Positions 10,693 through 27,104 of a stretch of DNA of 64,000 bases are shown here, one piece after another; positions within the stretch are counted from its first letter, which is position 1, and every line of letters begins with the position of its first letter. Location: assembly GCF_054482595.1 (NCBI RefSeq), contig NZ_CM137008.1. One strand, written 5' to 3'. The position numbers and the translations under genes are program-made. Under the pieces are notes generated by a model. That model was not told the origin of the DNA, did not search any database, and saw only the letters and a program-made list of their open reading frames with translations.

Positions 10693-11574
10693 TCATGGGG
10701 CAGCATCATTAGGAGGGTATACATTGACCGATGTACTTACACGATGAAACTCTAGTATGTTGCCAGTATGGTGACCAGGGATAGCTTCAAACACCCCAAG
10801 AAATCGGTACAGTGTCCTGTTCAACTCATCACGAGAATGTGCCATAACAATTCGTTTATCCCAGCGTTCTGTGTATCCCTCATCATCCTTTATATTCCGC
10901 TCTATGATTTTGTTACCATCATCAGTCAATTCATTTCCCCAATCTGAATTTCCATATAGTTTTGGAAACCAAACCATGCATTTTCCTGATAGACCCATTG
11001 CTTCACTTATGTGAGAAGGAATGCTCCAACCGCCAGACTGATGATGTCCTTTGTTGTAACCGAAACAGTTCAAAGCATCCCGGTGGTATCTGAAGACGGC
11101 ATCTGGACCTACAGATATCCTTCCTGCCTTAAGATGAGGACGAGCTGTATATTTATTATCATAATCCCATTCTTTGAATTTTTTATCTTTAATCATTCTA
11201 TTTTTACGATTGCGTATCAACTCAATAAATTCATTGATATAACGATCGAAAATTTCAAGACTTATTTCGCTGGCGGGAATTCTTTTCTCTAAAAATCCTG
11301 TAACTTCAGTAATATCCATACGACGTTTCGCATCATCTATTTGTGATTGCTCACTGTTGTGATGCCCTTCATCAATTTCAAGATAAAGTTCCAGTTGTGG
11401 GAAAAATAAATCTGCCAAATAGATTTTTCCATTTTCTTTTCTGACACATTGCTGGCAGACAAATTCAATGTCGGGATCATTTAAAAGATGATAAATGCGA
11501 GTTACTGCATAATGTTCCCATCGTTTTTTTGAGGTTTTCGTAAGTGAACGTAGGATGTAATCAGTTTTATCCAT
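10693..11574 (-). CDS. Hypothetical protein, 293 aa, AT-rich, inside the satellite-like island
   Basis: Clean ORF; ELYLEIDEGHH and C-terminal KRIVMAH (Rx4H-like) motifs noted but no confident family assignment. Confidence 0.55.
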   Translation of the reverse strand: MDKTDYILRSLTKTSKKRWEHYAVTRIYHLLNDPDIEFVCQQCVRKENGKIYLADLFFPQLELYLEIDEGHHNSEQSQIDDAKRRMDITEVTGFLEKRIPASEISLEIFDRYINEFIELIRNRKNRMIKDKKFKEWDYDNKYTARPHLKAGRISVGPDAVFRYHRDALNCFGYNKGHHQSGGWSIPSHISEAMGLSGKCMVWFPKLYGNSDWGNELTDDGNKIIERNIKDDEGYTERWDKRIVMAHSRDELNRTLYRFLGVFEAIPGHHTGNILEFHRVSTSVNVYPPNDAAP

Positions 11575-11989: not shown

Positions 11990-12565
11990 TTATGTTGCTA
12001 CGGGTTCGTCGCATTTCGGTAGCCAGTCGCCGTAGCTTTCCTCTTTCAGCGACAGATTGGTTTGTATCCCCTGCTTAGTGTGCCGCTTCTCATAATTCAG
12101 GCCGTACTCTTTCAGCATCATGGGCAGCCCCAGCCCGAACATTTTCAGGCTGAGTACGTTCCTATACCCGTTAGCCTCCATATAGGCCAGATACGCGTGA
12201 TAGAGATATTTACGATAATTACGCGGGATGATGCTGGCATTCCCCATAAACATCCCGTTGGTCTGCGGGAGCATTTCCAGATAGCCGCAAAAATCAAACG
12301 TAGGGTCAGCATCGCGCTTGATGCTGAGCGCCTCGTCGGAATTCTGCTGTGACTGGAGCAGTGCGCAGGCTGCCATCGGGTCGCTGAACTTCTGCATGAG
12401 CTGGCGCACAATCACGGCCAGCTCGCGCGCAATTTTATCCCTGAGCTGCGGGTCGCGTTCCTCCGGCGCAATTTGCTCCGGGAAGTGAATAATCACCCGG
12501 CGACGTGACACACCACCGCTGCGGTCGGTGAAGCGCATGGGGTTATTGTTCACTGCCAGAATCAC
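11990..12565 (-). pseudogene. Truncated primase/helicase (P4 alpha-like, D5/SF3 family) C-terminal remnant
   Basis: Frame stays open upstream to about 12670 without a start codon (…LKAITGGDAVSVDPKYQNPYSTHIPAVILAVNNNPMRFTDRSGGVSRRRVIIHF…); far shorter than an intact alpha (~770 aa). Confidence 0.5.
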
Positions 12566-12722
12566 CGCCGGAATGTGTGTTGAGTACGGGTTCTGGTATT
12601 TCGGGTCAACCGAGACCGCATCGCCGCCGGTGATGGCCTTAAGCCCTGCGCCGTCACCGCCGCCGCGTAAAGTACAGGGCTGCTACAGCTCGCCGTTCCG
12701 GCATTAATCAGGAGAGAGACTC

Positions 12723-13289
12723 GTGACCACTGTGACCATACAGCAGGCCTTTGAGGCCTGTCAGACGAACAAAAATACCTGGCTGAAACGTAAAGCCGAA
12801 CTGGCAGACCTTGAACGGGAATACCGTGAACAGCTCCTTGCCGGTGACGAACAAATCCCGCGCAGAATGCAGGATTTGCGCGACAATTTCGACGTGAAAA
12901 AATGGGAGATTAATCAGGCCGCCGGTCGTTATATCCGCTCACATGAGGAAGTGCAGCACATCAGCATCCGCAACCGGCTCCATGACTTTATGCAGTAGCA
13001 CGGCGCGGAGCTGGCCGCCACGCTGGCACCTGAGCTGATGGGGTATAACGAACAGCTTCCCGCAGTAAAACAGAGCGCCATGCAGCACTCGGTTGATTAT
13101 CTGCGTGAAGCCCTGTCGGTATGGCTGGCTGCAGGTGAAAAAATTAATTATTCCGCGCAGGACAGCGATATTTTAACGGCCATCGGATTCAGGCCTGATG
13201 CGGCCTCGCGGGATGATAATCGCCAGAAATTCACCCCGGCACAGAACCTGATTTACACCCGCCGACGTGCAGAACTGGCCGCACGGTAG
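12723..13289 (+). pseudogene. psu: psu-like (P4 polarity suppression protein) gene with one in-frame TAG at 12999..13001
   Basis: ORFs 12723..12998 and 13038..13289 are in the same frame separated by a single amber; N-terminus MTTVTIQQAFEACQTNKNTW resembles recalled P4 Psu; combined length 188 codons. Confidence 0.55.
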
Positions 13290-13690
13290 CACGCAAAAAA
13301 ATCCGCAAAATTCCGCTATTTTTTCCGAAAAAAGCCATGCATCCATAAGGTGCATGGTTTTTCATGCAAATCCCCGTATTTTATTTTCCTCACCGCGCCA
13401 GTACCGGCGCGGCCTGAGCCGGTTCATGCACCTGCATTAAAAGCGACCTCTTAAGCGGGCAGGCGTGGCGGGGAGAGCATTGCGCGCGGAGTGGGTGTTT
13501 TATTTTTTGTATGTCACATAAACTTAAGGTATGCAGTACGTAGCTAGTTTCACTAATACTGGGACGAAAAGAATGGTGCGTTTGTAAAAATGTATTTTAA
13601 TTTTTGGATTGTGATACAGAGTAAATTTCATTTAATTTTGTATTTTAATTGCGGTAAGCTATAACAAACTTGAAAAGGAATTATAATCAC

Positions 13691-15352
13691 ATGAGGTATG
13701 TTGAAAATATGAAAATTCTAGTAACTGCACCTTCAAGAAAAAATCACCCAAAAAATAATGTATTGTATGATTTTATATTGCAACAAGATGATTGGAATGA
13801 TTTTAGTTTTATCACTAAGTATCATTTATACATTACAACGAAACTTACTGGTCTTGATGAAATAGAGTATGCTGGGGTTGTTAAAATTATAAAAAAAGAT
13901 CAGTCTGAAGCTGATTACTACATGGTTGAAGAAGGCGAGTTTTCATATTTGAGTGACGAGTTTTGTTCTGTGGGACAATCTCTTGATTATTATGGGAGGC
14001 TCTCTGAATTGGGGAGTGAAATTTGTGAGGGGATATTGACATCATTACGCGACATTAATATGTTTGATTATGTTTCTGAGGGTTTCAAAAATGAAAGAGC
14101 TTGGGAACGTTCTATCATGAGAGACTTAAATAATGATGATGATATTTTTATTCTTCCAAAGTTTATAATAAAAAATCAGTTCTCGGCTATACCTAGTATA
14201 GACATGAAGTTTTCATTTATGTATTCAGGAATGATTAATACTCTTTCGTTTGATTTCGATTCAATACAATATGGATATTTTGAAAGTGAAAAACTACCAT
14301 GTAGAATGTCCGTAATTGTAGGCCGGAACGGTTGTGGGAAGAGTACAACATTGGCAAGACTTTCTAGGGTTGCTTATTCTTCAACTCAGGACAGAAAAAA
14401 AGAACAGATAGCCAAAATTGGTGAAATTCTTCCAGAGGGATTAGGTTTTCCGAAAATAATCAACCTTTCATACAGTGCTTTTGATAGTTTTCAAATACCC
14501 GGGTGTACTTTTAAAGAAAAGAAACAGCTAAGGCAAGACATACTTGATGGGAAAGGTAGGTATATATATTGCGGAGTCAGGGATGTTGGTGCTGAATTGG
14601 ATTATGTATTGGCTAATGTAGATGAAAACAATATGGATATAGAGTTTATTACATTAGATAGGCAAGAGAGAACCATATTAAAACCTCTTGAAGTACTTAG
14701 TGAAGAGTTTTATGGTGTCTTGATAAAAATACATAAAGATAGTGATAAGTGGAATTTGTTTAATAAAGTGATGATGAAGTTGAGAGAAGAGGTTTCATTA
14801 TCTGAAATTATTGATGAAATCTTTAAAGATGATTTTATTCTTAAATCTAAAGAATATTTTCATAGGTTGAGTACAGGGCATAAATTTGTTTTGCATTCGA
14901 TGGCGCATATTTTGTTGTATATTGAAAAAAGATGCCTTGTTTTATTTGATGAGCCTGAAACTCATTTGCACCCGCCATTGCTTGCGGTTTTAATGAGCGC
15001 TCTGAGAATTGTTTTGAACGAAGTCGATGCTTTTGCTATTGTTGCTACTCATTCACCTGTGGTAGTACAAGAAACATTAAGTAAAAATGTTAATGTTATA
15101 ACTAGAAATGGGGAGTTTACTGATTTTCAACGACCTGAAATTGAAACTTTTGGTGAGAATATTGGAGCAATAACATCATCAGTATTTTCATTAACGACTC
15201 AAATAACTGATTATCATGATGAATTAGACAAGCTAATAATAGAATATAAAAATAATAATAATCCATTAGATGACATTGAAAAATGTTTTGATACAGGTCT
15301 TAGTACACAAGCAAGGTCTTATGTAATATCTAAATTAGCGGTAAAAGGATAA
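13691..15352 (+). CDS. ABC-type (AAA_15/AAA_21-like, SMC/RecF/OLD superfamily) ATPase with ~190-aa N-terminal extension; PtuA-like candidate defence ATPase
   Basis: Walker A VGRNGCGKST, signature-like LSTGHK, Walker B LVLFDEPETHLHP, H-loop ATHSP. AAAGGAA SD before ATG 13691; alternative starts TTG 13670 and ATG 13709. Strongly AT-rich. Confidence 0.8.
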   Translation: MRYVENMKILVTAPSRKNHPKNNVLYDFILQQDDWNDFSFITKYHLYITTKLTGLDEIEYAGVVKIIKKDQSEADYYMVEEGEFSYLSDEFCSVGQSLDYYGRLSELGSEICEGILTSLRDINMFDYVSEGFKNERAWERSIMRDLNNDDDIFILPKFIIKNQFSAIPSIDMKFSFMYSGMINTLSFDFDSIQYGYFESEKLPCRMSVIVGRNGCGKSTTLARLSRVAYSSTQDRKKEQIAKIGEILPEGLGFPKIINLSYSAFDSFQIPGCTFKEKKQLRQDILDGKGRYIYCGVRDVGAELDYVLANVDENNMDIEFITLDRQERTILKPLEVLSEEFYGVLIKIHKDSDKWNLFNKVMMKLREEVSLSEIIDEIFKDDFILKSKEYFHRLSTGHKFVLHSMAHILLYIEKRCLVLFDEPETHLHPPLLAVLMSALRIVLNEVDAFAIVATHSPVVVQETLSKNVNVITRNGEFTDFQRPEIETFGENIGAITSSVFSLTTQITDYHDELDKLIIEYKNNNNPLDDIEKCFDTGLSTQARSYVISKLAVKG

Positions 15353-15357
15353 TACAT

Positions 15358-16203
15358 ATGTGGACACTACCTTTACCAGATGATGCGGATAGAATGAGCG
15401 AGTTATTAACCGCTTTAACGTATAAAAATGGAAATCCTAAGTATGCTTTAACACAAGATGAAAAGGATAAAATTGAAACTATTTATACTTTATATCACGA
15501 TCGTAAAGCAACTCCCTGTGCTGAATTTTTAGCAGAGGAAATAAGTGATGAAACCCAAAATGCTATAAAAACAGCTTATTCAGAAGTGCAAATAAATGGA
15601 CGGCTTTCAACCCTTCGCTCAAGGATTTTATTAAGTTCTAAAAAATGCCCATTATGTGGGATCGAATCATCAACCGACCTAGATCATTATCTTCCCGAAT
15701 CAATATATAAATGTCTCGCAGTATATTCAAGAAACCTGATACCGACCTGTCATAAGTGCAATAATAAAAAAAGAGCTGGTGTAGCAGAAAATGGAGTTGG
15801 ATTTATTCATGTGTATTATTTTGATGAGCCCGATGGTGTATTTTTCGTTGCCAATACTGAAATGATAGATGGTGCTTTAGTAATTGATTTTAATATCAAT
15901 ATGATCGAGGGTATGACTCGAGAGGTATATGATTCATTATGCTTTCAAAATAGAGTTGTTAACCTAAATGAAAGGTTAAAGATGGAAGCGAATGATTTTT
16001 TAGGGGGGCTCTATACTTCACTTGAAGAAACATATAATTCTGCAGGCCAAGAAGGATTAAGATTATTTCTAAAAAGAACTAGGGATGACTATACCAGACG
16101 TTATGGGCTTAATCATTGGAGAAGAGCATTGATAGATAGTCTATCCGATAATGTGGAGTTCCTTGACGCTGGTTTTATTACTGCCTTAGGAACTCCAGAG
16201 TGA
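15358..16203 (+). CDS. HNH endonuclease-fold protein, 281 aa; PtuB-like candidate defence nuclease
   Basis: HNH motif KKCPLCG…DLDHYLPES…N…CHKCNNKK; starts 5 nt after the ATPase stop with AAAGGA SD (translational coupling); ends 2 nt before the convergent integrase. Confidence 0.8.
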   Translation: MWTLPLPDDADRMSELLTALTYKNGNPKYALTQDEKDKIETIYTLYHDRKATPCAEFLAEEISDETQNAIKTAYSEVQINGRLSTLRSRILLSSKKCPLCGIESSTDLDHYLPESIYKCLAVYSRNLIPTCHKCNNKKRAGVAENGVGFIHVYYFDEPDGVFFVANTEMIDGALVIDFNINMIEGMTREVYDSLCFQNRVVNLNERLKMEANDFLGGLYTSLEETYNSAGQEGLRLFLKRTRDDYTRRYGLNHWRRALIDSLSDNVEFLDAGFITALGTPE

Positions 16204-16205
16204 GT

Positions 16206-17399
16206 TTACTGGTGGGGATGAATATGTCGTCCCCACCAATTCATCAATTCAATTCTTGCGTGTAAATATGTTGAGCGATTGTAGGCTTTTCGTACTTCAT
16301 TTCTATCTGAATGAGCAAGAGCAGCCTCAATTACATCAGCATTAAAACCGGCTTCATTCATTGCCGTACTTGCAATCGAACGTAAACCATGTGCAACCAA
16401 TTTCCCACCATAACCTATTCGCTTAAGTGCAGCATTGGCAGTTTGGCTATTCATAGGTTGTTTTGGATTATTTCTGCTGGGAAAAACATGTTCTCGATGT
16501 GCACTAATAGGTTTCATCACATCCAGAATTTCTAATGCTTGTGGTGATAAAGGAACAATGTGTTCACGCTTAGCCTTCATTCGTTCGGCGGGAATCGTCC
16601 AGAGTTTGGCATTGAGATCGATCTCTACCCACCGAGCACCAGAAGCCTCAGAAGGGCGCACTAGGGTCAGAAGCTGCCATTCAATAAGACAGCGAGTCGG
16701 AACAGACAGATTCGACATGACCAGGGAACGCATAAGCTTAGGTAATTCTTCTGGCCGTAGCGTGGGCATATTTTGCTTTTTGGGTTTCTCAAAAGCCATT
16801 CCTACACCCGAAGCCGGGTTGGCATCTATCAGACCGGTATTAACCGCATAAATCATTATTTCGTTAATACGCTGAACTAGGCGACGAACCGTCTCTAATG
16901 CGCCACGTGCTTTGATTGGCTCCAATGCTTCAACAATCGTTCTGGCCTTTATATCCTGAACGGGCATCGCACCGATTGCCGGGAACACGTCTTTATCCAA
17001 AGAACGCCAAATATCCTTTGCATAATCCTCTGTGACACTTCTGCTTTTAATCTGGAACCAGTTAGCGGCCACAGTTGAGAAAATGCTGTCTAACTCAATC
17101 TGGCGTTGTGCTGACGCTTGCTCCTGTTGCTGTTGTGGATCCATGCCTTGCGCGAGCGTGGTTAAGTGCTGGTCGCGTATCTGACGAGCTGCTGCGAGTG
17201 TAAGGGCAGGGTATGAGCCGAGACTCAAATTTGTGCGGCTGCTGCTTCCCGGTCGTTGATAACGGAAGCGTCAGAGTTTTTTACCGGAGGTTTTGACGAG
17301 TAAGAACAGGCCATCACCATCATGCAGGGTGAAGTCTTTTTCGCGGGGTTTCGCTTTGAGGATTTCGTTGTTAGTGAGGGGGCGTGTAATGCGCGCCAT
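16206..17399 (-). pseudogene. intA: P4-family tyrosine integrase (intA-like) interrupted by an in-frame TGA after codon 42
   Basis: N-terminus MARITRPLTNNEILKAKPREKDFTLHDGDGLFLLVKTSGKKL, then TGA (complement 17271..17273), then the same frame continues RFRYQRPGSSSRTNLSLGSYPALT… into the 340-aa ORF. Confidence 0.8.
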
Positions 17400-17582: not shown

Positions 17583-17945
17583 TGGTGGAGCTGGCGGGAG
17601 TTGAACCCGCGTCCGAAATTCCTACGTCCTCGGTACTACATGCTTAGTCAGTCTTTACATTCGCTTGCCAGCTGCGGACGGACACGCCACTAACAAACTA
17701 GCCTGATTAAGTTTTAACGCTTCAACCCCAGGCAGGGCCTCCACGCGATCTCTTTTGGGTTTGACCTCTCTTGATCCCCGTCCTAAGAGCGGAGGCTAGG
17801 GAGAGAGGGCTCTAAGCAGGTTATTAAGCTGCTAAAGCGTAGTTTTCGTCGTTTGCGACTATTTTTTGCGGCTTTTTACGAGGCCAACCGCCCCTCGGCA
17901 TGCACCTTGGGTTTCGCAAATCCCGTCGAATCCAGAATCAGCCCC
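17583..17945 (-). ncRNA. ssrA: tmRNA (SsrA), 363 nt
   Basis: Reverse complement begins GGGGCTGATTCTGGATTCGACGGG and ends …GGTTCAACTCCCGCCAGCTCCACCA, with the tag-coding region between. Confidence 0.95.
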
Positions 17946-23479: not shown

Positions 23480-24740
23480 ACTCCGCCACACTCTCGCGCA
23501 GCGGTTTCACAGGAAAAACTTTTACCTGCTTAATCATATTGTCCTGTACGTCGAGAATATCTATATCGTACTCGCCAATACGCACGCGGGTGCCTGCGAC
23601 AGGGATCTCTTCCAGTGCCTCAAGAATGACGCCATTAACCGTGCGGGCATCATCTTCCGGTAGATGCCAGTTAAAGGCTTTGTTGATTTCCCGCACGTTG
23701 GCGGTGCCATCGATAATCACCGAACCGTCGTTTTGCGGCGTGACCTCTTCGGCAAGTGTTGGCGACATCGACGTAGTGAAATCGCCGACAATCTCTTCCA
23801 GAATATCTTCAACCGTCACCAGCCCTTGAATGTCTCCATACTCGTTGACGACCAGGCCGACTTTCTTTTTGTTGCGCTGAAACTTTACCAACTGCGTGCT
23901 GAGCGGCGTACCTTCCGGCACAAAATAGATCTCGTCCGCGGCGCGCAGCATGGTTTCTTTGGTGAACTCTTTTTTCTCCGACATCAACCGCCAGGCTTCA
24001 CGTACTCGCAGCATACTGATGGCGTCGTCCAGCGAATCACGGTAGAGCACGATGCGCCCGTGAGGTGAGTGGGAGAGTTGGCGCAGAATAGATTTCCAGT
24101 CATCGTTGATATCAATACCGATAATTTCACTGCGCGGCACCATGATGTCATCAACGGTCATTTTTTCCAGATCGAGCACCGACAGCAGCATATCCTGATT
24201 GCGACGGGAAATTTGTGAGCGCGATTCGTGCACGATAGTGCGCAACTCTTCTTTGCTCAAAGAGCCGCTGACCACGATATCGGTTTTGATGCCCATAATG
24301 CGCATTAACATGCGGGTGATAGCGTTCAGCAACCAGACCAGCGGCATCATCAAAATTTGCAGCGGTGCTAACAGAATACTACTCGGATAAGCGACTTTTT
24401 CCGGGTATAGCGCAGCGATAGTTTTCGGCAACACTTCGGCAAAAACCAGCACCACAAAGGTCAGCACACCAGTCGCAATTGCCACGCCCGCATCGCCGTA
24501 CAAACGCATCCCAACAATAGTGCCGAGCGCGGAGGCAAGAATATTGACCAGGTTATTGCCGATTAACACCAGGCTTATCAGGCGGTCTGGCTTACGCAGC
24601 AATTTTTCGACGCGTTTGGCCGAGCGATTACCCTGTTTCGCCATATGTCGCAGACGATAGCGGTTGAGGGTCATCATTCCGGTTTCGGACCCGGAAAAAT
24701 AGGCTGAAATGACCACCATGATGATCAGAATAATGATCAA
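23478..24740 (-). CDS. yfjD: Inner membrane protein YfjD (CorC/HlyC family with CBS domains)
   Basis: 420 aa; N-terminal transmembrane helices then CBS/CorC region. Confidence 0.9.
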   Translation of the reverse strand: MIIILIIMVVISAYFSGSETGMMTLNRYRLRHMAKQGNRSAKRVEKLLRKPDRLISLVLIGNNLVNILASALGTIVGMRLYGDAGVAIATGVLTFVVLVFAEVLPKTIAALYPEKVAYPSSILLAPLQILMMPLVWLLNAITRMLMRIMGIKTDIVVSGSLSKEELRTIVHESRSQISRRNQDMLLSVLDLEKMTVDDIMVPRSEIIGIDINDDWKSILRQLSHSPHGRIVLYRDSLDDAISMLRVREAWRLMSEKKEFTKETMLRAADEIYFVPEGTPLSTQLVKFQRNKKKVGLVVNEYGDIQGLVTVEDILEEIVGDFTTSMSPTLAEEVTPQNDGSVIIDGTANVREINKAFNWHLPEDDARTVNGVILEALEEIPVAGTRVRIGEYDIDILDVQDNMIKQVKVFPVKPLRESVAE

Positions 24741-24784
24741 CGTAGTAGTAGAAATGTGTTCCAGGGGAAACTCCTTTTCTGGGT

Positions 24785-25576
24785 TTAGCTGATTAACTGC
24801 TGGACAATTCGGCTGCCGAAGTAGGCCAGTGTCAGAATGACTGCACCCGCAACGTTAAACCAGACGACGCGGCGTCCACGCCATCCTTCATGATAATGTC
24901 CCCACAGCAGCACAATATAGACAAACCACGCCACGATAGAGAGCACAGCCTTGTCGATATTTTCCATGCTAAATAAGTTGTGCATGTAGAACAGGCCAGT
25001 GCAAAGCGTGAGCGTTAGCAGCACCACGCCAATCTGCGTGATGTGGAACATTTTACGCTCGATACTCATCAATGGCGGCATTTCCTGGTTAAACGCCAGC
25101 TTCTTGTTCTTCAGTTGGTAATCAATCCACGCCAGTTGCAGCGCGTACAGGGCGGCGATAATTAGCGTGGCATAGGAAAAGAGCGATAAGCCAATGTGCA
25201 CCAGCATCCCAGGTGTAGCTTCCAGATGGGTGATGTATTCATTGGGCATGAAGGTTGCCAGCGCCAGGTTGATAAGCGCAAAGGCATAGACAATGGGTAG
25301 CAGCAACCAGCCACGATTGCGAGAAGCCACAATGGTCATTACCGTACAGATCATCAAACTGACCAATGAACCAACGTTCAGCAGGCTGAGGTTTTGTCCG
25401 CTATCACCGTCGGGCAGGATGCGGGCTTCCAGAGCGATTGCGTGGCAGACCAGCGCAATGACCGCAGAAATAATAGCCATGCGCCGCCAGCCGCCGTTTT
25501 TTTGCAGCAGACCGGGAACAATCAGCGCAAGACTGACGGAGTAGGCGACAAGCGCGAGCAGAGCAAAAACGGGCAT
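24785..25576 (-). CDS. ypjD: Inner membrane protein YpjD (cytochrome c assembly-like)
   Basis: 263 aa from internal Met MPVFALL…; ORF-track ORF extends 25 codons further upstream to 25651. Confidence 0.85.
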   Translation of the reverse strand: MPVFALLALVAYSVSLALIVPGLLQKNGGWRRMAIISAVIALVCHAIALEARILPDGDSGQNLSLLNVGSLVSLMICTVMTIVASRNRGWLLLPIVYAFALINLALATFMPNEYITHLEATPGMLVHIGLSLFSYATLIIAALYALQLAWIDYQLKNKKLAFNQEMPPLMSIERKMFHITQIGVVLLTLTLCTGLFYMHNLFSMENIDKAVLSIVAWFVYIVLLWGHYHEGWRGRRVVWFNVAGAVILTLAYFGSRIVQQLIS

Positions 25577-25742
25577 AGTAATGTCGACAGTTTGAGCAAT
25601 AAGAAAGAGAAGCAGTATAGCGTCAGGTGAACGCTGCTCCAACCGTTGCATAACAACAAAGACGCCTTCATGTTATACTGCGGCAAAATACTGATGATGT
25701 GTCGCGATTGCGGCCAACCGTTTCCACCCCAGGCGAGAGACA

Positions 25743-27104
25743 ATGTTTGATAATTTAACCGATCGTTTGTCGCGCACGCTGCGCAATATCAGTGGCCGTG
25801 GACGCCTCACTGAAGACAACGTAAAAGATACGCTGCGCGAAGTGCGCATGGCGCTGCTGGAGGCGGACGTCGCTCTGCCGGTAGTGCGTGAGTTTATCAA
25901 TCGCGTAAAAGAGAAAGCGGTTGGTCATGAAGTTAATAAAAGCCTGACGCCGGGGCAGGAGTTCGTCAAAATCGTCCGTAACGAACTGGTTGCGGCGATG
26001 GGCGAAGAGAACCAGACCCTGAATCTGGCGGCACAACCGCCTGCGGTCGTGCTGATGGCGGGCCTGCAAGGTGCCGGTAAAACCACCAGTGTCGGTAAGC
26101 TCGGTAAGTTCCTGCGCGAGAAGCACAAGAAAAAAGTGCTGGTGGTTTCTGCCGACGTTTATCGTCCAGCGGCAATCAAACAGCTTGAGACGCTTGCAGA
26201 GCAGGTGGGCGTTGATTTCTTCCCTTCTGATGTTGGTCAGAAGCCGGTAGATATCGTTAACGCGGCGCTGAAAGAAGCCAAACTGAAATTCTACGACGTG
26301 CTGCTGGTGGATACCGCTGGTCGTCTGCACGTTGACGAAGCGATGATGGACGAGATCAAACAAGTCCATGCGTCCATAAATCCGGTTGAAACCCTGTTTG
26401 TGGTTGACGCCATGACCGGTCAGGATGCGGCCAATACGGCAAAAGCATTCAATGAAGCGTTACCGCTGACCGGCGTAGTGTTGACCAAAGTGGACGGCGA
26501 TGCCCGCGGCGGTGCGGCGCTCTCTATTCGTCACATCACTGGCAAACCGATCAAGTTCCTCGGTGTTGGCGAGAAAACTGAGGCGCTGGAGCCGTTCCAT
26601 CCGGACCGCATCGCGTCGCGTATTCTCGGCATGGGCGACGTACTGTCGCTGATCGAAGATATCGAAAGCAAAGTTGACCGCGCGCAGGCAGAGAAATTAG
26701 CCAGCAAGCTAAAAAAAGGCGACGGCTTCGATCTCAACGACTTTCTTGAGCAACTGCGCCAGATGAAAAATATGGGCGGCATGGCTAGTCTGATGGGCAA
26801 GCTGCCGGGCATGGGGCAGATCCCGGATAACGTCAAGTCACAGATGGACGATAAAGTGCTGGTGCGTATGGAAGCCATCATCAACTCGATGACGATGAAA
26901 GAGCGCGCTAAGCCAGAAATCATCAAAGGTTCGCGTAAACGCCGTATTGCTGCCGGTTGCGGTATGCAGGTGCAGGACGTTAACCGTCTTCTGAAACAGT
27001 TCGACGACATGCAGCGCATGATGAAGAAAATGAAGAAGGGCGGAATGGCGAAGATGATGAGAAGCATGAAGGGGATGATGCCGCCGGGATTTCCTGGTCG
27101 CTAA
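25743..27104 (+). CDS. ffh: Signal recognition particle protein Ffh
   Basis: 453 aa; GLQGAGKTT G-domain; Met-rich C-terminus. Confidence 0.95.
   Translation: MFDNLTDRLSRTLRNISGRGRLTEDNVKDTLREVRMALLEADVALPVVREFINRVKEKAVGHEVNKSLTPGQEFVKIVRNELVAAMGEENQTLNLAAQPPAVVLMAGLQGAGKTTSVGKLGKFLREKHKKKVLVVSADVYRPAAIKQLETLAEQVGVDFFPSDVGQKPVDIVNAALKEAKLKFYDVLLVDTAGRLHVDEAMMDEIKQVHASINPVETLFVVDAMTGQDAANTAKAFNEALPLTGVVLTKVDGDARGGAALSIRHITGKPIKFLGVGEKTEALEPFHPDRIASRILGMGDVLSLIEDIESKVDRAQAEKLASKLKKGDGFDLNDFLEQLRQMKNMGGMASLMGKLPGMGQIPDNVKSQMDDKVLVRMEAIINSMTMKERAKPEIIKGSRKRRIAAGCGMQVQDVNRLLKQFDDMQRMMKKMKKGGMAKMMRSMKGMMPPGFPGR

What the first reader, a model, noticed from the sequence alone, without database searches (positions are those of the whole stretch)
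13691..14320. About 190-aa N-terminal extension of the ATPase preceding Walker A, with no recognisable motif
The ATPase core starts only around residue 215; the preceding region (…FSFITKYHLYITTKLTGLDEIEYAGVVKIIKKDQSEADYYMVEEGEFSYLSDEFCSVGQSLDYYG…) has no motif I can assign. In defence ATPases such extensions often act as sensor or oligomerisation domains, so this is where novelty relative to described PtuA proteins would most likely lie.
Basis: inference. Interest (0 to 1): 0.5.

Follow-up and report, generated by a model that had tools for sequence, protein, structure and literature searches.

The report
Conserved N-terminal domain of Ea59-type Septu ATPase
The unassigned stretch is a real, well-folded 160-residue domain with no named family or solved relative, but it is the standard front end of a large, already catalogued family of phage-defence ATPases that includes phage lambda's old mystery protein Ea59.

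Summary
About 205 residues precede Walker A (14321-14347), and no Pfam, NCBIfam or PDB sequence model covers them. Structure prediction (pLDDT 90-91) splits them into an extra ~160-residue domain (13709-14188) and ~40 residues of ordinary ABC-head strands.

The domain is not peculiar to this protein. It is the hallmark N-terminus of the phage lambda Ea59 family. The ATPase is 28% identical to Ea59 from residue 24 onward, and the downstream HNH gene is homologous to lambda Ea31, in the same gene order. PADLOC (PDC-M01A, and one PtuA model), PHROG 8066 and about 2,150 protein clusters carry the domain.

The identical gene pair is already listed as "Septu" (system 17, 80 loci) in the P4-satellite psu-int defence hotspot (Rousset 2022), which is where it sits here.

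A regulatory or sensor role is the best inference, by analogy with the retron PtuA N-terminal extension, but it is untested.

The parts
13709..15352 (+). Ea59-type (PDC-M01A, PtuA-like) ABC ATPase gene, 547 aa from the most likely start. PGAP uses the ATG at 13691 (553 aa); the open frame begins at a TTG at 13670.
   Evidence: Homologue N-termini align with the Met at 13709. PADLOC PDC-M01A 1e-99 over the full length. 28% identity to lambda Ea59, E 6e-52. Foldseek against the PDB hits only PtuA structures.
13709..14188 (+). Extra N-terminal domain, residues 1-160. The beta-rich half spans residues 1-90 (13709-13978, six strands). The helical half spans residues 91-160 (13979-14188). Conserved motifs: DDWNDFSFxTxYHL (13787-13828), FCSxGQSLDYYxRL (13961-14002), LRD (14045-14053), W..S.MRD (14102-14125), DDDIF (14135-14149).
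14189..14320 (+). N-terminal beta-strands of the ABC ATPase head (residues ~161-204). They lie inside the finding's coordinates but belong to the ATPase core.
   Evidence: AF2 strands at 167-171, 179-182 and 200-204 lead into the P-loop. The PDC-M01A model PDLC04236, which lacks the extra domain, aligns from residue 173 in 553-aa numbering, which is about residue 167 in 547-aa numbering.
14321..14347 (+). Walker A, GRNGCGKST (K211).
   Evidence: invariant G205, N207, G208, G210, K211.
14867..14887 (+). ABC signature-like motif, LSTGHKF.
   Evidence: Invariant T389, G390, H391, K392; coordinates.
14936..14974 (+). Walker B and D-loop, LVLFDEPETHLHP.
   Evidence: Invariant D414, E415, P416, E417. 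Pfam AAA_21 and AAA_15 match residues 388-459 in 553-aa numbering. Coordinates.
15044..15058 (+). H-loop, ATHSP.
   Evidence: Invariant H448, S449, P450; coordinates.
15358..16203 (+). HNH nuclease partner (Ea31-like, PDC-M01B), 281 aa, starting 5 nt after the ATPase stop codon. The zinc-finger HNH motif CxxC...DH...N...CxxCN lies at 15646-15771. The N-terminal peptide MWxLPLP (15358-15381) is conserved.
   Evidence: PADLOC PDC-M01B 3e-37 and PtuB only 2e-8. 24% identity to lambda Ea31, E 5e-12. Alignment A3. Coordinates.
12723..13289 (+). P4-type psu (polarity suppression) pseudogene with an internal stop; left boundary of the satellite defence hotspot.
   Evidence: PGAP annotation of the identical locus. 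ORFs at 12723-12998 and 13038-13289. The hotspot is defined as the interval between psu and int (PMC9122126).
16206..17399 (-). Integrase pseudogene (internal stop); right boundary of the hotspot. It lies next to ssrA (tmRNA, 17583-17945, minus strand).

Best explanation
Shown. The segment encodes a genuine, independently folding domain of about 160 residues (six beta-strands followed by four helices). This domain is the family hallmark of lambda Ea59-type, PtuA-like ABC ATPases. The ATPase and the HNH nuclease gene 5 nt downstream form a two-gene Septu-related module (PADLOC PDC-M01, lambda Ea59/Ea31-like). The module sits in the psu-int defence hotspot of a decayed P4-like satellite integrated at ssrA.

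Inferred. The ATPase dimerises and holds the HNH nuclease through its C-terminal helices, as in solved PtuAB complexes. The N-terminal domain is the regulatory or sensing input module. It would bind a conserved infection-associated ligand or partner and couple that to the ATPase head, releasing or activating the nuclease. This parallels the way the unrelated N-terminal extension of retron I-A PtuA docks the RT-ncRNA that keeps PtuAB in check.

The confidence given (0.55) is for the whole statement: the identity part is near certain (about 0.95), the regulatory or sensing role about 0.5.
For: Identity.
- PDC-M01A 1e-99 and PDC-M01B 3e-37.
- Lambda Ea59 28% identity over residues 24-510, E 6e-52, and Ea31 E 5e-12, with the same gene order.
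- Lambda Ea59 and Ea31 are themselves PDC-M01A (4e-201) and PDC-M01B (6e-113).
- Foldseek of the full-length model finds only PtuA structures, probability 1.
- The identical pair is system 17, labelled 'Septu', in P4 hotspots.

Reality of the domain.
- pLDDT 90-91.
- 13 invariant residues.
- 2,150 clusters at E<=1e-3.
- 299 AFDB hits at E<=1e-3, and nearly all of the 50 listed are N-termini of ATPases of about 480-640 aa.

Modular, accessory character.
- A PDC-M01A sub-model lacks the domain (PDLC04236 aligns from residue 173).
- Some members carry further modules in front of it.
- In a census of 80 species, 76 are fusions with the ATPase (one of them frameshifted), and 74 of those have the HNH gene downstream.
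- Stand-alone copies exist. One is a 159-aa gene after an RT_UG17 (DRT10) plus SLATT pair. It keeps its exact length across two lineages that are 77% identical, with dN/dS 0.12.
- The core motif residues W29, D31, T36, S87, Y95, D115, S135 and R138 are kept in that stand-alone copy. They therefore serve the domain itself, not only an ATPase interface.

Analogy.
- The retron PtuA N-terminal domain binds the RT and ncRNA, and deleting it abolishes defence (PMC12673091; PMC12819146).
Against: There is no experimental or structural evidence for any ligand, so the sensor role rests on analogy and on modularity. The domain is about as conserved as the rest of the protein: 41% mean pairwise identity, against 33% for the mid-helical insert and 54-62% for the ATPase lobes. 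A surface that directly reads fast-evolving phage proteins would be expected to vary more. The domain is acidic (mean net charge -7.6, and -11 here), which argues against simple nucleic-acid binding. No anti-phage assay of this particular subtype was found in the searched literature.
Confidence: 0.55

Rival explanations
1. The extension is an annotation artefact. The true start would be a downstream Met, and 13691-14320 would be largely non-coding.
For: Public annotations disagree on the start: 553 aa against 524 aa. Neither candidate ATG has an ideally spaced Shine-Dalgarno sequence.
Against: Homologues of 540-565 aa from Proteobacteria, Bacteroidota, Actinobacteria, Firmicutes and Campylobacterota align from residue 1. 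The model is confident over the whole region. Lambda Ea59 shares the region. The 524-aa start would remove strand 1 and part of strand 2.
Confidence: 0.01
2. The domain is a structural scaffold rather than a sensor. It would mediate higher-order assembly of ATPase dimers or dock the HNH partner, for example its invariant N-terminal MWxLPLP peptide.
For: Stand-alone Septu PtuA self-assembles into an inflammasome-like oligomer (cited in PMC12819146). The conservation level is typical of an intramolecular or intersubunit interface. The HNH partner has an invariant N-terminal peptide shared with lambda Ea31. A full-length pTM of 0.86 suggests that the domain packs rigidly on the ATPase.
Against: In solved PtuAB complexes the nuclease is held by the C-terminal helices of PtuA, not by the N-terminus. 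The domain persists as a stand-alone gene beside a reverse transcriptase-SLATT pair that has neither the ATPase nor the HNH gene. A PDC-M01A sub-family does without it.
Confidence: 0.25
3. The domain is a nucleic-acid recognition module that directs the nuclease to its substrate, such as a modified base, ssDNA or a tRNA.
Confidence: 0.15
4. The domain is a new enzyme, for example a second effector or a nucleotide-modifying activity.
Against: No known catalytic motif and no significant fold match. D93 and R97 are not kept in the stand-alone copies. The ribosome-inactivating-protein catalytic ExxR/W arrangement is absent.
Confidence: 0.04

Closest known systems
Phage lambda Ea59-Ea31 (b-region early genes)
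   Same: Same two-gene order, ATPase then HNH, tightly coupled (a 4-nt overlap in lambda, a 5-nt gap here). The same N-terminal domain followed by an ABC ATPase: 28% identity over residues 24-510, E 6e-52. The HNH partner shares the zinc-finger HNH motif and the N-terminal LPLP peptide (24% identity, E 5e-12). Both lie next to an integrase and attachment site.
   Different: The lambda pair is carried by a functional temperate phage, and my recollection is that it is expressed early in lytic growth. Here the pair sits in a decayed P4-like satellite. The sequences are strongly diverged. The biological role of the lambda pair is itself unresolved: it is non-essential and is annotated 'ATP-dependent endonuclease' (PMC10695390).
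PADLOC candidate system PDC-M01 (PDC-M01A + PDC-M01B)
   Same: Full-length matches to both component models (1e-99 and 3e-37), correct gene order, and the N-terminal domain included in the A models.
   Different: No difference was found, so this is a member. PDC-M01 is a bioinformatic candidate. No functional study was found in the searched library.
Stand-alone Septu PtuA/PtuB (E. coli, PDB 8EE4, 8EEA, 8SUX; Septu EcB88)
   Same: An ABC ATPase plus an HNH nuclease in a defence island. The full-length model matches PtuA structures with probability 1. The exact system is labelled Septu by Rousset et al. 2022. One PADLOC PtuA model (PDLC00282) covers the full length.
   Different: Characterised PtuA proteins have no N-terminal domain (Walker A lysine K43 against K211). 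Sequence identity is 10-15% and global TM-score only 0.3-0.4. The HNH partner matches PtuB only at 2e-8, and its HNH motif starts near residue 97 rather than near the N-terminus.
Retron I-A (Ec78/Eco7, Ec83) PtuA
   Same: The best sequence and fold matches among solved structures. It also has an N-terminal appendage in front of the ATPase that serves as a regulatory docking element.
   Different: That appendage is 63 residues (three helices and two strands) and has no detectable similarity to this domain. The retron needs RT, ncRNA and msDNA, and no RT or ncRNA gene is present in this hotspot. NCBIfam PtuA NF041760 scores 40 bits against a cutoff of 500.
OLD, GajA and PARIS AriA ABC ATPases
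   Same: Homologous C-terminal half of the ABC ATPase (weak PADLOC, Pfam AAA_15 and AAA_21 matches).
   Different: No TOPRIM domain and no DUF4435 partner. Their N-termini begin directly with the ATPase head.

Membership tests
Lambda Ea59/Ea31 family (PADLOC PDC-M01) | Full-length match of the ATPase to PDC-M01A models, including the N-terminal domain | tested here: met
   PDLC04244 and PDLC04235 at about 1e-99, covering residues 7-548. The domain alone scores 6e-26. Lambda Ea59 scores 4e-201 on the same model.
Lambda Ea59/Ea31 family (PADLOC PDC-M01) | Adjacent downstream Ea31-like HNH partner (PDC-M01B) | tested here: met
   PDC-M01B 3e-37. BLASTP to Ea31 5e-12. 5-nt intergenic gap. The same pairing is seen in 74 of 76 fusion loci and in three loci checked by hand.
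Lambda Ea59/Ea31 family (PADLOC PDC-M01) | Direct pairwise homology to lambda Ea59 across both domains | tested here: met
   28% identity over residues 24-510, E 6e-52; tblastn against phage records 1e-41.
Septu (PtuA/PtuB) | ABC-type ATPase with Walker A, signature-like motif, Walker B and H-loop | tested here: met
   Motifs at 14321-14347, 14867-14887, 14936-14974 and 15044-15058, invariant in 60 homologues. Pfam AAA_21 and AAA_15.
Septu (PtuA/PtuB) | Fold similarity to solved PtuA | tested here: met
   All 50 listed top Foldseek PDB hits are PtuA chains, E down to 4e-11, probability 1. Global TM-score is only 0.3-0.4.
Septu (PtuA/PtuB) | HNH nuclease partner recognisable as PtuB | tested here: inconclusive
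   An HNH zinc-finger motif is present, but the best PtuB model scores only 1.8e-8 over 80 residues, whereas 24 PDC-M01B models score better.
Septu (PtuA/PtuB) | Canonical PtuA architecture, with the ATPase head at the N-terminus (Walker A lysine near residue 40) | tested here: not met
   Walker A lysine is K211. A 160-residue domain precedes the head, compared with K43 in Septu EcB88.
Septu (PtuA/PtuB) | Protection against phage that depends on both the ATPase and the HNH activity | not testable with these tools
   Only contextual support: the P4 psu-int hotspot and defence-island neighbours of homologues.
Retron I-A PtuA (NCBIfam NF041760) | Score above the curated equivalog cutoff, and an associated RT/ncRNA | tested here: not met
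   40.3 bits against a cutoff of 500. No RT gene lies between psu and int.
OLD/Gabija GajA | C-terminal TOPRIM nuclease domain fused to the ATPase | tested here: not met
   No TOPRIM hit in Pfam. GajA and Old models match only the Walker B region in relatives.

The most novel reading that the evidence does not exclude
The N-terminal domain would be an autonomous, so far un-named defence module (an 'Ea59-N' domain) reused across otherwise unrelated immune systems. It is fused to Septu-like ATPase-HNH pairs. It is placed behind further N-terminal modules in some members. It occurs in a protein fused to McrB. It is homologous to the C-terminus of the PADLOC single-gene candidate PDC-S34. It also occurs as a stand-alone third gene, under purifying selection, beside DRT10 (UG17) reverse transcriptase-SLATT loci. 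Under this reading it recognises one conserved infection cue, for example a phage SSB-like or recombination protein, or an ssDNA intermediate. Studying it would also explain what lambda's ea59-ea31 genes do.
Probability: 0.25. Interest if true: 0.6.

Novelty: already known. Interest (0 to 1): 0.3.

Why it matters
The system is already catalogued, so the locus adds no new kind of immunity.

The useful outcome is a sharper target. A confidently modelled, strongly conserved 160-residue domain separates the large Ea59-type branch (about 2,150 protein clusters at 50% identity) from every PtuA whose structure or mechanism is known. It has no Pfam family and no solved structural relative.

Because phage lambda carries the same domain in Ea59, simple lambda genetics and a deletion series in this E. 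coli system could reveal two things: how this Septu branch senses infection, and what a 40-year-old pair of lambda accessory genes does.

The stand-alone copy beside a DRT10 locus hints that the domain is a transferable input module. That remains a hint.

Tried and rejected
- Pfam on the whole protein and on all 42 domain sequences: nothing covers residues 1-190.
- NCBIfam: nothing relevant on the domain.
- PDB sequence search with the protein and with the domain profile: only the ATPase C-terminal half matches, and the domain hits are noise (E>=0.2).
- Foldseek against AFDB50 returned only family members, so it gave no annotation beyond 'AAA ATPase', 'AbiEii-like' and 'Ea59'.
- Promoter and terminator scan of 13250-16350: counts were no higher than in shuffled sequence.
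- Literature searches for PDC-M01, Ea59, and Ea59 with Ea31 found no functional study and no paper linking Ea59 to Septu.
- The DRT10 preprint I read (10.64898/2026.04.29.721553) does not mention a third protein. I did not read the second DRT10 preprint listed.
- Short 'stand-alone' hits P0145 and P0142 lie on contigs too short to interpret. P0146 is a frameshift at the domain boundary of a normal fusion gene. L092 is a frameshifted normal gene in a high-GC genome.
- I could not obtain model coordinates or run a multimer prediction, so the position of the conserved residues and the contacts between the domain, the ATPase and the HNH partner remain unknown.
- I could not retrieve a PDC-S34 protein to examine that architecture.

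Full report
**Observation**

The + strand between 13670 and 15352 is one open frame. Three starts are in use or possible:
- ATG at 13691 (PGAP, WP_021557103.1, 553 aa).
- ATG at 13709.
- A TTG 29 codons downstream of 13691, used in another NCBI model of 524 aa.

More than fifty homologues of 540-565 aa from several phyla begin exactly at the Met of 13709 (MKILVT...). I therefore number from there (547 aa). Walker A (GRNGCGKST, K211) is at 14321-14347, the base after the finding's end.

Generic libraries see nothing in front of it:
- Pfam matches only residues 388-459 in 553-aa numbering (AAA_21, AAA_15). It gives no hit at E<=10 on the first 164 residues of any of 42 family members.
- NCBIfam has nothing relevant.
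- PDB sequence searches with the protein or with a domain profile return only the ATPase C-terminal half, or noise.

**Anatomy**

AlphaFold2 with a 60-sequence alignment gives a confident full-length model (pLDDT 90.1, pTM 0.86). The first 164 residues modelled alone give pLDDT 91.3.
- Residues 1-90 form six beta-strands.
- Residues 91-160 form four helices.
- From about residue 166, the strands typical of an ABC ATPase head lead into the P-loop.

So the extra domain is about 160 residues (13709-14188), not 190. Residues 161-204 (14189-14320) already belong to the ATPase core.

Thirteen positions are invariant in the domain: W29, D31, T36, L40, I60, S87, L92, D93, Y95, R97, D115, S135 and R138. 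They group into the motifs DxWND.SF.T.YHL, VKI.KKGQ, FCS.GQSLDYY.RL, LRD, E.GW..S.MR and DDDIF.

Mean pairwise identity in the domain is 41%. That lies between the ATPase lobes (54-62%) and the mid-helical insert (33%). The domain is consistently acidic, with a mean net charge of -7.6 and -11 here.

**What family it is**

- PADLOC matches the whole ATPase to PDC-M01A (1e-99) and to one PtuA model, PDLC00282 (1e-73). The downstream 281-aa gene matches PDC-M01B (3e-37) but PtuB only at 2e-8.
- The domain on its own still hits PDC-M01A (6e-26), PDLC00282 (1e-19) and PHROG 8066 (4e-18).
- A Foldseek hit named 'Ea59 protein' led to the key comparison. tblastn against phage records finds lambda and its relatives. 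BLASTP gives 28% identity to lambda Ea59 over residues 24-510 (E 6e-52), so the match includes the N-terminal domain.
- The HNH gene is homologous to lambda Ea31 (E 5e-12).
- In lambda, ea59 and ea31 overlap by 4 nt, in the same order, next to att and int.
- Lambda Ea59 and Ea31 are near-perfect matches to PDC-M01A (4e-201), PDLC00282 (5e-184) and PDC-M01B (6e-113). PDC-M01 is in effect the Ea59/Ea31 family.
- The full-length model matches only PtuA chains in the PDB (retron I-A complexes and E. coli Septu 8EE4/8EEA/8SUX), with probability 1, 10-15% identity and TM-score 0.3-0.4.

**Context**

- The identical locus in complete E. coli genomes is flanked by a psu pseudogene, a primase-like fragment and an integrase pseudogene next to ssrA. 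This is a decayed P4-like satellite.
- Rousset et al. 2022 define the interval between psu and int as the P4 defence hotspot (PMC9122126).
- Their Table S1 lists exactly WP_021557103 plus WP_021557102 as system 17 ('AAA_15/AAA_21 | HNH_4', 80 loci), annotated 'Septu (Doron et al., 2018)'. The protein sequences there are identical to the window's.
- The two genes have 32-35% G+C, against 51% for the chromosome.
- Only 15 of 5,426 complete E. coli genomes carry the locus.
- Homologues in Vibrio, a Sphingobacteriaceae bacterium and Paraburkholderia are always followed by a partner of about 285 aa. They sit among BrxR, restriction-modification, KAP NTPase, SIR2 and T5orf172 genes.

**Is the fold known?**

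**Distribution and modularity**

- A profile of the domain finds 2,150 clusters (50% identity representatives) at E<=1e-3 and 1,493 at E<=1e-10.
- In a census of 80 species genomes, 76 loci have the domain fused to the Ea59-type ATPase (one of them, L092, is frameshifted). Of these, 74 have the HNH partner immediately downstream.

Variants:
- Extra modules of about 60-260 residues in front of the domain (P0195, P0235, P0255, L051, L073, L075).
- A PDC-M01A sub-model that lacks the domain (PDLC04236).
- Homology to the C-terminus of the single-gene candidate PDC-S34.
- A 1,049-aa metagenomic protein in which the domain plus ATPase is fused to a McrB-like GTPase, with McrC downstream.
- Genuine stand-alone copies.

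The clearest stand-alone copy is a 159-aa gene in Odoribacter laneus and relatives. It lies 24 nt after an RT_UG17 (DRT10) plus SLATT pair. A lineage that is 77% identical keeps the same three genes and the exact 159-aa length, with dN/dS 0.12. The gene is therefore functional, not a remnant, and no ATPase remnant follows it. The DRT10 preprint I read does not mention this gene. The stand-alone copy keeps W29, D31, T36, S87, Y95, D115, S135 and R138, but not D93 or R97.

**Mechanism**

Shown: a PtuA-like ABC ATPase with intact catalytic motifs, coupled to a zinc-finger HNH nuclease, in a defence hotspot.

Inferred from the solved PtuAB and retron complexes (PMC12673091, PMC12819146): the ATPase dimerises, its C-terminal helices hold the nuclease, and nucleotide state and bound partners gate the nuclease.

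In retron I-A, the only regulatory element at the PtuA N-terminus is a 63-residue extension. It docks the RT and ncRNA and is required for defence. By analogy, and because the Ea59-type domain is modular, autonomous and optional within the family, I consider a regulatory or sensing input role most likely (about 0.5).

Its fairly high conservation and acidity argue for a conserved ligand or partner rather than direct reading of variable phage proteins or plain DNA binding. Alternatives, with my estimates:
- An assembly or HNH-docking scaffold (0.25).
- A nucleic-acid reader (0.15).
- An enzyme (0.04).

**Verdict**

- Its interpretation is half right. The domain is indeed what distinguishes this protein from characterised PtuA proteins. 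But it is the ordinary N-terminus of the lambda Ea59/PDC-M01A family, and this exact system is already catalogued as Septu.
- The locus is therefore already known.
- The residual interest lies in an abundant, uncharacterised domain without a solved fold, in its link to lambda ea59/ea31, and in its stand-alone occurrence beside a DRT10 locus.

Noticed in passing
L002 (phage lambda NC_001416) 24509-26973; window 13709-16203: The lambda b-region genes ea59 and ea31 are a Septu-like ATPase-HNH pair. They are near-perfect matches to PADLOC PDC-M01A/B and to the PtuA model PDLC00282. I found no paper in the searched library that says so or tests a defence or competition role.
   Followed up: partly
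L007 2014-4480; L049 (Odoribacter laneus) 4935-5417; L096 3011-5480: A stand-alone 159-aa copy of the N-terminal domain is the third gene after an RT_UG17 (DRT10) plus SLATT_5 pair, 24 nt downstream. It is kept at exact length between two lineages (77% identity, dN/dS 0.12). The DRT10 preprint I read does not describe it.
   Followed up: partly
L011 515-5025 (metagenome contig): A 1,049-aa protein fuses the domain and the Ea59-type ATPase to a McrB-like AAA_5 GTPase (DUF8426, McrB_lid). A McrC gene follows, so the HNH partner appears to be replaced by a McrBC module. This rests on a single 7-kb contig.
   Followed up: no
L095 (Prevotella sp. MAG) 4905-6522: A divergent stand-alone copy of the domain (193 aa) overlaps the start of an unannotated 322-aa gene. 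The two-gene island is inserted between adk and obg.
   Followed up: no
window 10693-11574 (-): An AbaSI-family endonuclease gene (PADLOC mREase_II, 4e-122), a type of enzyme I recall as dependent on modified DNA. It lies just outside the satellite remnant, so the island holds a second defence gene.
   Followed up: partly
window 11990-13289 and 16206-17399: The P4-like satellite is decayed: a primase-like fragment, psu with an internal stop, and an integrase with an internal stop. Its hotspot cargo (ATPase plus HNH) is intact.
   Followed up: partly
window 13670-13790: Public annotations disagree on the start codon. PGAP gives 553 aa from 13691. Another NCBI cluster of 406 sequences gives 524 aa from a TTG, which would delete strand 1 and part of strand 2 of the domain. 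Homologues support 13709 (547 aa).
   Followed up: yes
window 15358-15381 and alignment A3: The HNH partner has an N-terminal peptide, M-W/K-x-L-P-L-P, whose M1, L6 and P7 are invariant from E. coli to lambda Ea31, about 95 residues upstream of the HNH motif. Its binding site is unknown; it may dock on the ATPase.
   Followed up: no
L009 646-2276: In one metagenomic locus the domain and the ATPase are in different reading frames, with the shift exactly at the domain boundary. This may be a sequencing error or a naturally split gene.
   Followed up: partly
window 1-5000: A low-GC (34-38%) stretch holding a tRNA-Met gene (2593-2668) and a DUF5507-family gene (3419-4873), upstream of the YpjA/EhaD autotransporter gene (5679-10382).
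   Followed up: no
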